Shown here one piece after another: positions 52,101 to 62,093 of a DNA stretch of 64,000 bases. The notes under the pieces are model-generated. The model saw nothing but the letters and a program-made list of their open reading frames with translations, did no database searches and was not told the origin of the DNA. Both the position numbers and the translations under genes were made by a program. How positions within the stretch are numbered: the first letter of the stretch is position 1; the number at the start of each line of letters is the position of its first letter. This DNA comes from Chrysomallon squamiferum (taxonomy: Eukaryota > Animalia > Mollusca), in contig CM022667.1 of assembly GCA_012295275.1 (NCBI GenBank), positions 6,572,001-6,636,000 of the forward strand, in the 5' to 3' direction.

Positions 52101-55100
52101 TAATAATAATAATAATAATAATAATAATAATAATAATAATAATAATAATAATCATACTACTAATAATAATAATAGTAACTTTTTATTTTTGGTCACATTT
52201 TGAAAAAAATTATAAAAATAGGTAGCTTTTGGTCATCATTTTAAACAACACATATAAAAATAGCTAACTTTAAAAAAATAAATAACAATAATAATCTAAA
52301 TAATAATTTTGTGTCTACCAGTATCTACTGACAGTTGGTCGATTTGTGGACACTACGTGGTAATGCTGTTGTCTAGAATTAAAATAAGAAAAGGAAGAGT
52401 TAATGACCGAATGACTAAAATCTGACACTGAAGCAGATTTATTCTCAATGTACAAAATGTTTTGAAAATAATCGTCACAGAAAGATGTTTGACATGGCGT
52501 GTTTAGCTCTAAATATAAATTATTTCTAGCATTTGCCGAGATGCGATCCTAAAGTCCTCATAACAACAAACTAAGATGTGCTACAATAATATAAATGATG
52601 ATGATGATAATGATAATGATGATGGTGATGATGATGATGATGATGATGATGATTACGGAACAAACACAAATAATATGAATACATTACGTTCAGAGAAATT
52701 AGAAGTTCCACTGCTTGTAGTAATCTTAACTGGAGCTGTTGTCGTCGTTGTTGTTGTCGTCGTCGTTGTTGTTGTCGTTGTTGTTGTTGGTGTTGTTGGT
52801 GATTTCTTTGTTGTGAAAGAAACTTTGAAAAAAAATATTTATATCAATATTATCTGAAATACACCTATTATAAACAAATGTTTAATTAAAATGTAAGAAA
52901 TTATTTAGTTAGTTATTTTGTTACACAATATGAAATTAAATACAAACCAGTTATTGAATGCAGATTTATAAACTGAAAGGTTTGAAAACGTGTTACTGTA
53001 GACAGGTGTACAGATAAGTGAGATACGGAGACACGAACAAACAAACAGACAGACAGACAGACAGACACACAGACAGATACACAGACAGATACAAGTACTT
53101 ACCAACTGTGTCACAGTGACACTGGTCGTACAGAGCTTGAAGTGACGAATAACCAAACTGAATGTAACGTCTCCAGATCTCACAGTAACTCGCGGGAAAC
53201 TGACACTTTTCTACAAACAGAAACACCAGTCAATGGATCAGTCAGTCAGTCAGACAGTCAGTCAGTCGACCAGTCTTTAAATAATCAAATCAGTGGATAT
53301 TACCAGCACCAAAAATAGAATCAGAGAAACTTTATTAGCTACCTATGACGTAAACCGTATGATGTGAACAATCAAATGACGTCATACAAAATTATAAAAA
53401 TCGAAATGTTCAAGGTATGTGAATTTATTTGTTATACGTACGTTCTCTGATCTCAGTTTTTATTTTAATTTCTTCAATCTATCTATCTAGCTGTTTTCTA
53501 TCTACACACACATACATATACGTCCGTACGTACATACATACACACAAACATATAAACATTTTTCTATTAGTCTCATTTTTGTAATTAATTTTTTTCATTC
53601 AAGTCTTACGTTCATTTCCTGGTGTAGCTGTTGTTGTTGACGTCGATGTAGTCGTGGTTGTTGCTGGTGTAGTTGTTGTTGTTGTGGTAGTCGTTGGCGT
53701 TGTTGTTGTTGGAGTCGTAGTAGTAGTCGTTGGCGTTGTTGTTGTTGGAGTCGTAGTAGTAGTAGTTGGCGTTGTAGTTGTAGTGGTTGGCGTTGTAGTA
53801 GTAGTAGTTGGCGTTGTAGTAGTAGTAGTTGGCGTTGTAGTAGTAGTTGGCGTTGTAGTAGTAGTTGGGGTTGTAGTAGTTGGAGTTGTAATAGTAGGAG
53901 TAGTTGGAGATGTAACAATAGGAGCTGTAGTCGGCACTGTATAAATATCAACATAAATGAGTTCTATTTATATCAATAATTATAATTTACTTTTAATTTG
54001 CTTACTTACTTATTTACTTGCTCAGAAAATGTATTATTTATTATTTAGTCGTTATGAAAATTGTACCATTTTTATCTTGATATTATACTGATAATTCCTG
54101 TTTGACATTAATCCTTTTAGTTAAGTGTATTTATTTATTTTTATTATTATTATTATTATTTATTTATTTATTTATTTTTTTGAATACTAGTATACCACTA
54201 ACATAAATATTATAATCATCATCATAATCATGATTATTATTATTAGTAGTAGTAGTATTATCATCATCATCATTATAACTCATTATTGTTATTATTCTTA
54301 TTATCATCATCATCATCATCATCATTATTATTATTATTATTACTATTATTATTATTTATTAGTATACTAATAAATATTACAATCATAATCATCATCATCA
54401 TTATTATTATTATTATTATTATTATTATTATTATTATTATTATTATTATTATTATTATTATTATTATTATCGTCATCACCATTATCATGATCGTAATCAC
54501 AATATTGTCATTATCAGTGTGAGAGAAAACATCAGATCAGTTGTAGACTGACTTACAAAACTTTTCAAGGTAAAAGTCAGTAACGCGACGATACAAACAC
54601 TGTGTACGTAGTGAATCAGTTACGTAGATGTGTTTATACAAAGTAAAGTATAAAACAGAGAAACCTGACTTAGCGCAGTCGCACATGTCGTAGTAAAACC
54701 TGAGAGACGTGTAGCCCATGTTGATGTACAGTTTCCAGATGTTGCAGTAGTTCGAGTACTTAGTACACACAGCTAAACAAAACATAAATCATAGTTATAT
54801 ATATATACATAGAGAGAGAGAGAGAGAGAGAGAGAGAGAGAGAGAGAGAGAGAGAGAGAGAGAGAGAGAGAGAGAGAGAGAGAGAGAGAGAGAGAGAGAG
54901 ATTATAGGTAAGTATATAGTGGTAGTAGTAACAGAAGTAGTAGAAGTAGAAGTAGTAGTAGTAGTGGTAGTAGTAGTAGTAGAAGTAATAGTAGTAGCAA
55001 TGGTATAAAAGTATTATAGTAGTAGTAGTAGTAGTAGTTCTGTACTTTTAACAGAATAGAAAAAGCAAACATGACCAGTCTGTAAAAATGTTACGATCCA

Positions 55101-55386
55101 ATTAAATTTAAAATCTCGTTTAACTAATTTTTAGACACAAAAAACAAGTAAACACACCATTTATTTAATTTCTCCTTTCTTCTTCATGGAAATAAAAAAT
55201 AAAAAATGTCTGGTTATGTGTTTTTCACACTAATTAGATAAACTAACTAGATAAACTAACTAGATAAACTAACTAGATAAACTAATTAGATAAACTAATT
55301 AGATATTTTTACTCACTATTCACGTCTTGTGAGGAGGACAGAGTCAGAGAGAGAAGAAAAAACGTGACAGCGAGACAGCGACCCAT
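49186..55386 (-). CDS. Gene H: secreted active trypsin-like serine protease with two four-Cys modules and two Thr-rich mucin-like stalks
   Basis: Exons 55317-55386 (signal), 54665-54772, 53610-53936 (PTTTT repeats), 53103-53210, 52688-52822, 51706-51901 (LR|VVGG..CEFPW..TAGHC), 51294-51424, 50526-50660 (NDVAVV), 49647-49792 (GGKDTC) and 49186-49347 (GDSGGPL..PGVYT). Confidence 0.9.
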
Positions 55387-60400: not shown

Positions 60401-62093
60401 ATGTATGTATGTATGTATGGATGGATGAATGGATGTATATTCTATCCAAAGCTCTGATTATTGACACTGCTGAACAGACATACATTGAACATTTATCTGT
60501 GTTAGTTTAGTCTAACTGGACAAGCAAAGGAAATGTCACCCGTAAAGCCAGTACGTTTCATTTCAGAAGCATGTATGTTTATTAATTTAACGATATATAT
60601 ATATATATATATATATATAGAGAGAGAGAGAGAGAGAGAGAGAGAGAGAGAGAGAGAGAGAGAGAGAGAGAGAGAGAGAGAGAGAGAGAGAGAGAGAGAG
60701 AGAGAGAGAGAGAATGAGAGAAAGACAGACAGACAGACAGACAGTCAGACAGACAGTATATTTACATACAGAAACAAGCGAACACACAGAGACAAGTTAC
60801 GACAGAAGCAGAACGGTACATGAAACAAGCAAACAGACATTATTTCAAACAGCTGTCGTTATGACTGAAACACTGTTCAGTCTGGTGTAAACTAAGCAAG
60901 CTACACAAGTAATCATCTACAAGGAACCAAACTACGTCATCTACAACGTCAACTAGAAATGAATTACGTTCTGATAACAATCCCGACGTGTCTAATGCTG
61001 GAGTAGCTGTAGTTGTAGTTGTTGTCGTAGTCGTAGTCTTATCATCTGTTGTAAATTTGTATATTTATTTCTATTCCAATGACATTATATAATAATAAAC
61101 AACATCGTGATACCAATTAGAGTACTACAACAATTATAAAATGAGAAAGATTAAAATATTTGTTTATGTATTTATTTTTATTATTTATTTATTTATTTAT
61201 TTATTTGTTTACGAAGTTTATTTTTCTATAATTACTATTTATTATTATCATTATTATCATTATTGTTATTATTAGTAGTAGTAGTAGTAGTAGTAGTAGT
61301 ATATTAAACTTACGTTGGCTGTCACACTCGCACTCGTTGTAGACTCCTAACAAGCCGATGTAGCCGTTGTCGATGTACTGCTTCCAGACAGCACAGTACC
61401 TGTAGTCAGCACACCAGTCTGAAACAACGAAAACTGATATTTGAGATTATCAGTGAGCTTATCTGATCAGTTGATATAATTATTTTAAATAAACATACAA
61501 GAAGGTTTATTGTAACAGATATTCTAAAAACTAGTTAATTAATTAACTAATTAAACTGAATAAATTAAACACGTAAATAAATTAAAAACTATTTCATTTA
61601 TTAAGTAAATTAATACATAAGTAAATAAATTAGAAAGTACTTAATTAAGTAAGTCAAAAAAATAAATTGTAAAATAGAAATTATTTAATTAAGTAAATTA
61701 ACAAATAAGTAATTGAATTAGAAAATATAAAACTGATAAATAAGTAAATGAATTAGAAAGTATTAAAACTGAAAATAAAAATGAATTAGAAAGTATTTCA
61801 AAAACTAATAAATAAGTAAATGAATTAGAAAATATTAAAACTGATAAATAAGTAAATGAATTAGAAAATATTAAAACTGATAAATAAGTAAATGAATTAG
61901 AAAATATTAAAACTGATAAATAAGTAAATGAATTAGAAAATATTAAAACTGATAAATAAGTAAATGAATTAGAAAAAATAAAAACTGATAAATAAGTAAG
62001 CGTAGACTCACACGGGACCGCTGTGGATTGTGGCAGACGCACTAAAAGAGCGACAGACACCAGACACAGTCCTAGCAGGCCACACAAACTCAT
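57442..62093 (-). CDS. Gene I: secreted active trypsin-like serine protease with one four-Cys module and a Thr stalk (paralog of H)
   Basis: Exons 62012-62093 (signal), 61314-61418 ([31 protein letters not shown]), 60968-61045, 59583-59778 (LR|IVGG..TAGHC), 59121-59248, 58809-58943 (HDIAVL), 57850-57992 (GGKDAC) and 57442-57600 (GDSGGPL...VRRS*). Confidence 0.9.
58125..58865. repeat. Tandem copies of the gene I exon-6 3' end plus donor, spaced by (CA)n
   Basis: atatttacctttgaggatgccccagcctgacgtcagacagagagttcctgcagctacacgcac recurs at about 58135, 58397 and 58675, with degenerate copies near 58245, 58525 and 58580. Confidence 0.88.
61690..62000. repeat. 36-bp AT-rich minisatellite next to the gene I first donor
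   Basis: aaaactgataaataagtaaatgaattagaaaatatt, about 8 copies. Confidence 0.85.

What the first reader, a model, noticed from the sequence alone, without database searches (positions are those of the whole stretch)
53103..61418. Unrecognised four-Cys aromatic module (C..YC-x-[IV]W-xx-YI-xx-GY-xx-L-xxx-Y-xx-C-x-C) on the active proteases H and I
Seen in three copies, each on its own ~105-108 nt phase 1-1 exon and followed by a Thr-rich stalk: [31 protein letters not shown] (54665-54772), [31 protein letters not shown] (53103-53210) and [30 protein letters not shown] (61314-61418). The C, Y, W, I, G and L positions are conserved while the rest diverges, and the periodicity suggests a disulfide-stapled helical hairpin. 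It does not match ShKT, LDLa, EGF, chitin-binding type 2 or clip spacing as I know them, so it is a candidate undescribed domain.
Basis: partly seen in the sequence, partly recalled or inferred. Interest (0 to 1): 0.8.

Follow-up and report, generated by a model that had tools for sequence, protein, structure and literature searches.

The report
Undescribed cysteine module on snail proteases
Two trypsin-like genes of what is likely a deep-sea vent snail carry a small four-cysteine module, shared with the vent snail Gigantopelta and matching no Pfam family in our scan, that is predicted to fold as a helical hairpin and likely acts as a docking head that aims the secreted protease at a partner or surface.

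Summary
Three phase 1-1 exons (105, 108, 108 nt) encode a 35-residue module, C-x5/6-C-x20-C-x-C. Each lies between a signal peptide and a Thr-rich stalk in two complete S1A protease models with intact His/Asp/Ser triads. Independent support: Gigantopelta aegis XP_041376631.1, the orthologue of gene I, has two copies that keep all 12 invariant residues. No Pfam family matched, while equally short beta-defensin-like exons of neighbouring genes did score weakly. It fails the cysteine patterns of clip, ShKT and alpha-hairpinin. AlphaFold predicts two helices, with the invariant residues on one face of each. Neighbouring genes hold defensin-like or vWA exons in the same slot, so the module is most likely a swappable, tethered recognition head that works like a clip domain without being one. 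Its ligand, disulfide pairing and splicing are untested. The only homologue found is in one species, and sensitivity is limited: one large search missed that known positive. A lead, not linked by sequence, points to the symbiont-hosting oesophageal gland. Real and apparently undescribed, but narrow: interest 0.4.

The parts
62012..62093 (-). Gene H exon 1: start codon and predicted signal peptide (phase 0-1)
   Evidence: hydrophobic N-terminus, GT donor
61314..61418 (-). Module copy H, C-x5-C-x20-C-x-C, phase 1-1 exon
60968..61045 (-). Gene H Thr-rich stalk exon (phase 1-1)
59583..59778 (-). Gene H: linker Cys, Arg|Ile activation site, catalytic His
   Evidence: 77% identical to G. aegis P0003
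57442..59248 (-). Gene H remaining protease exons 59248-59121, 58943-58809 (Asp), 57992-57850 (S1 Asp), 57600-57442 (Ser, stop)
55317..55386 (-). Gene I exon 1: start codon and predicted signal peptide (phase 0-1)
   Evidence: aligns to the N-terminus of P0004
54665..54772 (-). Module copy I1, C-x6-C-x20-C-x-C, phase 1-1 exon
   Evidence: 20 of 35 residues identical to the first P0004 copy
53610..53936 (-). Gene I first Thr/Pro stalk exon (about 110 aa, 75% T+S)
   Evidence: absent from the P0004 model
53103..53210 (-). Module copy I2, phase 1-1 exon
   Evidence: 18 of 35 residues identical to the second P0004 copy
52688..52822 (-). Gene I second Thr-rich stalk exon
49186..51901 (-). Gene I protease exons 51901-51706 (linker Cys, Arg|Val activation site, His), 51424-51294, 50660-50526 (Asp), 49792-49647 (S1 Asp), 49347-49186 (Ser, stop)

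Best explanation
The module is a 35-residue, exon-encoded four-cysteine unit, conserved in Gigantopelta, that is predicted to fold as a disulfide-closed helical hairpin and likely serves as a protein-docking head, held out on a Thr-rich stalk, for the likely secreted trypsin-like proteases H and I. Shown: exon structure, copy number, invariant residues, intact triad and S1 Asp, and orthologous copies in a second species. Inferred steps: (1) the zymogen is secreted; (2) the hairpin folds with nested disulfides C1-C4 and C2-C3 around an aromatic core; (3) the O-glycosylated stalk keeps it apart from the catalytic domain; (4) an upstream protease cuts after Arg110 (H) or Arg271 (I); (5) the head stays attached through a disulfide between the linker Cys and the PIC Cys, as described for clip proteases; (6) the head binds an activator, a cofactor (for example the neighbouring non-catalytic homologues) or a substrate, and so localises an Arg/Lys-specific protease. 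The two copies in I would add avidity. The exon likely entered the common ancestor of H and I as a phase 1-1 cassette and duplicated in I before the split from Gigantopelta.
For: The 12 invariant positions defined from the window's 3 copies are all kept in both G. aegis copies (24 of 24), while overall identity is 38-57%. The window-only profile scores P0004 at E 2.5e-21. Against the orthologue, module identity (57% and 51%) is near that of the N-terminal protease part (46/79, 58%) and above the signal peptide (9/23, 39%). 7 of the 12 invariant residues use different synonymous codons among the paralogues; pS is 0.52-0.83 against pN 0.39-0.42 (only 17-19 synonymous sites). The single difference that DNA-like run X1 shows in exon I2 is synonymous (one site, weak). 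AlphaFold gives helices 6-17 and 21-30, mean pLDDT 79.5, and a helix pair in each copy of the tandem. The invariant residues lie within a 120-degree and an 80-degree arc of the two helices. Neighbouring protease and homologue genes carry other phase-preserving extracellular modules in the same slot: 7 defensin-like exons and 3 vWA exons. The linker-Cys/PIC-Cys tether is described for clip proteases in PMC1761132 (passages), and both Cys are present in H and I. Net charge varies from -3 to +3, which fits a non-electrostatic contact.
Against: No ligand was identified. The invariant hydrophobic residues could be only the folding core; the helical wheel cannot tell a core from a binding patch. The RefSeq model of the H orthologue (P0003) has no module and no signal peptide, so it is either truncated at the 5' end or has truly lost them. 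The P0004 model lacks the first stalk and the catalytic-Asp exon, so its structure or activity may differ from I. pTM is only 0.45-0.46, from alignments of 3-4 rows. The clade H+I+orthologues has support 70/91, not starred. In the module tree, the orthologous pairings have only 63-68% bootstrap.
Confidence: 0.45

Rival explanations
1. The module binds glycans or microbial surfaces (chitin, mucus, bacterial envelope) by aromatic stacking, like a carbohydrate-binding module on a Ser/Thr linker, and anchors the protease to a matrix or to symbionts.
For: Five invariant aromatic residues in 35. A small Cys module on a Thr-rich linker before a catalytic domain is the usual layout of carbohydrate-binding modules (own knowledge). 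[quoted passage not shown]
Against: The predicted fold is all-helical, whereas the chitin-binding and CBM1 modules I recall are beta-rich. No chitin-binding Pfam match. The aromatic residues fall on the predicted helix-helix faces.
Confidence: 0.22
2. The module is a much-degenerated member of a known Cys family (ShKT, clip or beta-defensin-like) that lost one disulfide, so it is not a new domain.
For: It has ShKT's length (35 aa, PMC6409789). A Trp three residues after the second Cys recalls ShKT (recalled, not tested). Four-Cys ShKT variants exist in a gastropod. Defensin-like exons occupy the same slot and phase in the neighbouring genes.
Against: The reported four-Cys ShKT variants lack Cys1 and Cys6; the inner spacing this would leave (recalled) does not give a Cys-free run of 20 followed by C-x-C. 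Profile-profile comparison with the neighbours' defensin-like exons gave probability 0.7% with 1 aligned column. No Pfam hit at E<=10, whereas those neighbours did hit defensin models.
Confidence: 0.13
3. The module is an intramolecular pro-region: it helps folding or secretion, or restrains the zymogen or the active enzyme, as helical-hairpin trypsin inhibitors do.
For: Plant alpha-hairpinins VhT1 and BWI-2c are two-disulfide helix-loop-helix trypsin inhibitors (PMC4695807). The module lies in the pro-chain.
Against: No Arg or Lys is invariant, and the conserved inter-helix loop is Gly-Tyr. Stalks of 26-110 residues separate the module from the enzyme, and I has two copies, which suits outward binding better.
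Confidence: 0.12
4. The module is released and acts alone as an antimicrobial or membrane-active peptide.
For: Amphipathic predicted helices (hydrophobic moment up to 0.70). Defensin-like modules lie in the neighbouring genes.
Against: Net charge is -3 to +3, not a conserved cationic charge. I saw no conserved basic cleavage site after the module. No stand-alone form appeared among 1.84 billion representatives, a search of limited sensitivity.
Confidence: 0.06

Closest known systems
Clip-domain serine proteases of arthropods
   Same: Secreted S1A zymogen with a small disulfide-bonded N-terminal head, a linker, a linker Cys paired with the PIC Cys, and trypsin specificity; found here in a cluster with non-catalytic homologues.
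   Different: Clip has six Cys with Cys5 and Cys6 adjacent. The module has four Cys ending C-x-C and is predicted to be helical only. No CLIP Pfam hit.
ShKT domain
   Same: About 35 residues; occurs as an accessory module on gastropod secreted proteins and proteases.
   Different: ShKT has six Cys (C1-C6, C2-C4, C3-C5) against four here, with different spacing. No Pfam hit.
Plant alpha-hairpinins (two-disulfide helix-loop-helix peptides)
   Same: Predicted helix-loop-helix of similar size with four Cys.
   Different: Their motif is CxxxC-(X)n-CxxxC and they are Lys/Arg-rich free plant peptides. The module is C-x5/6-C-x20-C-x-C, aromatic-rich, and part of a protease. At most an analogue.
Gigantopelta aegis XP_041376631.1 (P0004) and XP_041376630.1 (P0003)
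   Same: Orthologues of I and H with consecutive accession numbers; P0004 has two module copies.
   Different: Named only 'transmembrane protease serine 9-like' and 'serine protease 30-like'; the module is unannotated. P0004 lacks the first stalk and the Asp exon; P0003 lacks everything before the activation peptide.

Membership tests
Peptidase S1A (host proteins H, I) | His/Asp/Ser triad and trypsin domain | tested here: met
   H: His151, Asp198, Ser292; I: His312, Asp360, Ser455. PF00089 on the orthologues.
Peptidase S1A (host proteins H, I) | Catalytic activity | not testable with these tools
   Predicted from motifs only.
Clip domain | Six Cys with Cys5 and Cys6 adjacent (PMC1761132) | tested here: not met
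   5 of 5 copies have four Cys, gaps 5/6, 20, 1.
Clip domain | N-terminal to an S1A domain, with linker Cys and PIC Cys for an inter-chain disulfide | tested here: met
   Cys91 and Cys218 in H; Cys252 and Cys380 in I. This is architecture and is not specific to clip.
Clip domain | Clip fold | tested here: inconclusive
   Fold searches on 35- and 76-residue models give only generic rows.
ShKT | Six Cys, C1-C6, C2-C4, C3-C5 (PMC6409789) | tested here: not met
   Four Cys; no Pfam hit at E<=10.
ShKT | ShKT fold | tested here: inconclusive
   no direct superposition was possible.
Alpha-hairpinin | C1XXXC2-(X)n-C3XXXC4 motif (PMC4695807) | tested here: not met
   Spacing C-x5/6-C and C-x-C.
Alpha-hairpinin | Antiparallel helix-loop-helix closed by two disulfides | tested here: inconclusive
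   Two helices predicted; disulfides not visible, no coordinates returned.
Beta-defensin-like module of the neighbouring genes | Six Cys ending in CC; profile similarity | tested here: not met
   hhalign probability 0.7%, 1 column.
LDLa, EGF, chitin-binding type 2 | Pfam profile match | tested here: not met
   0 families at E<=10 for 3 of 3 copies; HMMER filters drop most matches above about E 0.1.
SMART, CDD and InterPro domains outside Pfam | Profile match | not testable with these tools

The most novel reading that the evidence does not exclude
A newly evolved four-cysteine helical-hairpin recognition domain, confined to vent peltospirid snails, that aims secreted proteases at bacterial symbionts or their host compartment in the oesophageal gland. 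It would be one head in a convergent, clip-like molluscan protease cascade built from swappable phase 1-1 exons (hairpin, defensin-like, vWA).
Probability: 0.12. Interest if true: 0.7.

Novelty: new variant of a known kind. Interest (0 to 1): 0.4.

Why it matters
It adds an apparently uncatalogued miniature disulfide scaffold and shows exon shuffling fitting three different heads onto one tandem cluster of gastropod proteases and non-catalytic homologues, much as clip domains do in arthropods. If the cluster is the one enriched in the symbiont-hosting gland of Gigantopelta, it gives a concrete, testable handle on how vent snails recognise or digest their symbionts. If the module is only a narrow orphan with no special ligand, the gain is one new Pfam-type entry.

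Tried and rejected
Searches for the module.
- Pfam: 0 families for 3 of 3 window copies.
- PDB sequences: 0 at E<=10 with two profiles.
- 1.84 billion 50%-identity representatives: 1 hit, P0001, rejected as a tandem-repeat translation matched in pieces of 6-7 bits at best. This search did not return P0004, which would score E 2.5e-21, so it misses modules on non-representative proteases.
- Word-seeded searches: only P0004, among 1 candidate (200-639 aa) and 29 candidates (134-2000 aa). Lengths under 134 aa were not searched with this tool.
- ESM Atlas: no usable feature hit; structure rows TM<=0.47. This shows neither absence nor novelty.
- Foldseek PDB and viral libraries: 0 matches. VIA-align best Z 3.6 (rmsd 2.6, 35 aligned) and Z 2.9 (rmsd 5.3, 62 aligned), generic helical pairs. 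No family is excluded by this.
- Homodimer prediction: no answer, score 0.00, alignment not used; not evidence either way.

Expression.
- No RNA holder listed. RNA contigs X2-X4 did not cover the module exons and no splice joint was seen. X1 did not cover the H module exon. Splicing is untested.

Other.
- No genome is held, so further copies elsewhere in the genome were not counted.
- Earlier scan findings: none.
- The biomineral proteome supplement of PMC11871041 had no hit for two module motifs, the accession or trypsin-domain identifiers (file 3 was cut when stored, file 4 unreadable).
- ctg220-1.2-1 ('TMPRSS9-like', up in the gland) was set aside as a name match only: it is the single trypsin row of its contig.
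- Nine literature searches listed nothing whose title or abstract describes this module; word searches cannot find an unnamed motif.
- Resemblances to the big-defensin N-terminal domain, GFR-alpha, saposin and CX9C hairpins were considered from memory only and dropped on Cys spacing; they were not tested.
- held boundary or frame slips, redone.
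Full report
Observation. The window is AT-rich (GC 34.3%), microsatellite-laden eukaryotic DNA. Each fills one exon with AG/GT ends and phase 1 at both sides: 61418-61314, 54772-54665 and 53210-53103. Twelve of 35 aligned columns are invariant: C2, Y8, C9, W12, Y15, I16, G19, Y20, L23, Y27, C30, C32. For each of the three pairs, 0 of 5000 shuffles reached the real alignment score, and no fourth copy exists in the window.

Host genes. Joining exons by splice signals gives two open frames. 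H (62093-57442, 341 aa) is signal peptide, module, Thr stalk, protease. I (55386-49186, 505 aa) is signal peptide, module, long Thr/Pro stalk, module, Thr stalk, protease. Both have a linker Cys, an Arg at the activation site, the His/Asp/Ser triad, the PIC Cys and an Asp in the S1 pocket. They are therefore predicted to be secreted, Arg/Lys-specific zymogens. Two splice sites in I are weak: the donor at 54665 and the acceptor at 52822. The model rests on sequence and orthology, not on RNA.

Independent confirmation. A search with H's first protease exon returned 2 proteins among 12 candidates, both from the vent snail Gigantopelta aegis, with consecutive RefSeq numbers XP_041376630.1 (P0003) and XP_041376631.1 (P0004). 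The window is thus likely from a peltospirid or a close relative (inference). P0004 carries two tandem copies of the module. The profile built from the window's copies alone scores them 56.7 and 40.2 bits, and all 12 invariant residues are kept in both. Module identity to the orthologue (20/35 and 18/35) is close to that of the N-terminal protease part (46/79), below the C-terminal part (67/94) and above the signal peptide (9/23). Among the window paralogues, synonymous differences exceed non-synonymous ones, on few sites. The one difference that run X1 shows in exon I2 is synonymous. Against a tidy picture: P0003, the H orthologue (76% identical over 249 residues), starts inside the activation exon and has no module, and P0004 lacks the first stalk and the catalytic-Asp exon. 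These may be faults of the gene models or real differences. The two sequenced peltospirid genera split about 66 Ma (PMC7736800, passages) or 116 Ma (PMC7895826, passages), which gives a rough scale if the window comes from another genus.

Is it a known domain? No Pfam family matched any window copy at E<=10, nor the two copies inside P0004. As a control, the equally short six-Cys exons of the neighbouring genes did reach beta-defensin models weakly (3 of 7 for PF13841, best E 0.003). The module is unrelated to those exons by profile comparison. By the definitions in the papers I read as passages, it is not a clip domain (six Cys, last two adjacent; PMC1761132), not ShKT (six Cys; gastropod four-Cys variants lose Cys1 and Cys6; PMC6409789) and not an alpha-hairpinin (CxxxC twice; PMC4695807). 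Wider sequence searches found only P0004. One of them is shown to miss a true positive, so the narrow range is provisional. The fold, Atlas, complex and RNA attempts are listed under Tried and rejected.

Structure. AlphaFold2 on the three-row alignment gives helices at 6-17 and 21-30, mean pLDDT 79.5, pTM 0.46. The G. aegis tandem repeats the helix pair in each copy, pLDDT 75.4. The invariant residues lie on one face of each helix, the invariant Gly-Tyr sits at the turn, and net charge is not conserved. Nested disulfides C1-C4 and C2-C3 are the natural closure of such a hairpin, but this is inferred.

Context. The window is a tandem cluster on one strand. Besides H and I, it holds one more protease with an intact triad (D, about 24.6-17.9 kb) and several homologues with altered catalytic motifs. 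In the slot after the signal peptide these genes carry phase-preserving exons for beta-defensin-like six-Cys modules (7 exons) or vWA domains (3 exons; PF00092 E<=1.4e-38). H, I and their orthologues form one side of a branch, support 70/91, not starred (9 rows, the truncated gene at the window's left end left out). The simplest reading is that one cassette entered the H/I ancestor.

Mechanism. The best reading (0.45) is a tethered protein-docking head that works like a clip domain without being one. After cleavage at the Arg it would stay linked by the linker-Cys/PIC-Cys disulfide, described for clip proteases, and would bring the enzyme to an activator, cofactor or substrate. The rivals are glycan or microbial-surface binding (0.22), a degenerate known domain (0.13), an intramolecular pro-region or inhibitor (0.12) and a released antimicrobial peptide (0.06). 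No ligand was found.

A lead on physiology. In the supplements of PMC7895826 (searched and partly read), contig ctg623 of G. aegis holds 5 of the 45 genes labelled KOG3627 trypsin, the most on any contig (ctg190 has 4, ctg1522 has 3), together with 3 genes whose names suggest vWA domains. That matches this window's make-up. [quoted passage not shown] The other four ctg623 trypsin genes are not on that list. The rows I saw give no sequences or coordinates, and I checked neighbours only for ctg623 and, in part, ctg220. The link to XP_041376630/631 is therefore unproven.

Verdict. A real, conserved and apparently uncatalogued accessory module on an ordinary protease family: a new variant of a known kind. 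Uncharacterised Cys arrays also occur on other secreted gastropod proteins, so surprise is moderate. Interest 0.4; it would be 0.7 if the module proved to be a symbiont-targeting domain.

Noticed in passing
window 46853-46969, 46221-46394, 38676-38792, 37386-37784, 31882-31998, 29316-29603, 23115-23375 (minus): Seven exons with a six-Cys module ending in CC, weakly beta-defensin-like, N-terminal to a protease, to protease homologues or to a vWA domain. They meet the working clip definition of PMC1761132 (six Cys, last two adjacent), which suggests clip-like proteases in a gastropod.
   Followed up: partly
window 28284-28844, 14121-14681, 8405-8956 (minus): Three single-exon vWA domains. Two precede protease homologues with broken triads. 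The gene at about 32200-27660 appears to be signal, two defensin-like modules, Thr stalk and vWA, with no protease.
   Followed up: partly
window about 47550-41650 and 39860-34560 (minus): Two protease homologues with altered His and Ser motifs whose protease exons are nearly identical: a recent tandem duplication, or an assembly of two haplotypes.
   Followed up: no
window 58142-58715, 19650-20790, 6257-6900: Introns hold tandem partial copies of adjacent exon ends with their splice sites (four copies of the end of H's Asp exon; repeats); they could permit mis-splicing or be assembly artefacts.
   Followed up: no
P0004 (XP_041376631.1): The RefSeq model lacks the exon with the catalytic Asp and is named 'transmembrane' although the N-terminus looks like a signal peptide; probably a faulty model.
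   Followed up: partly
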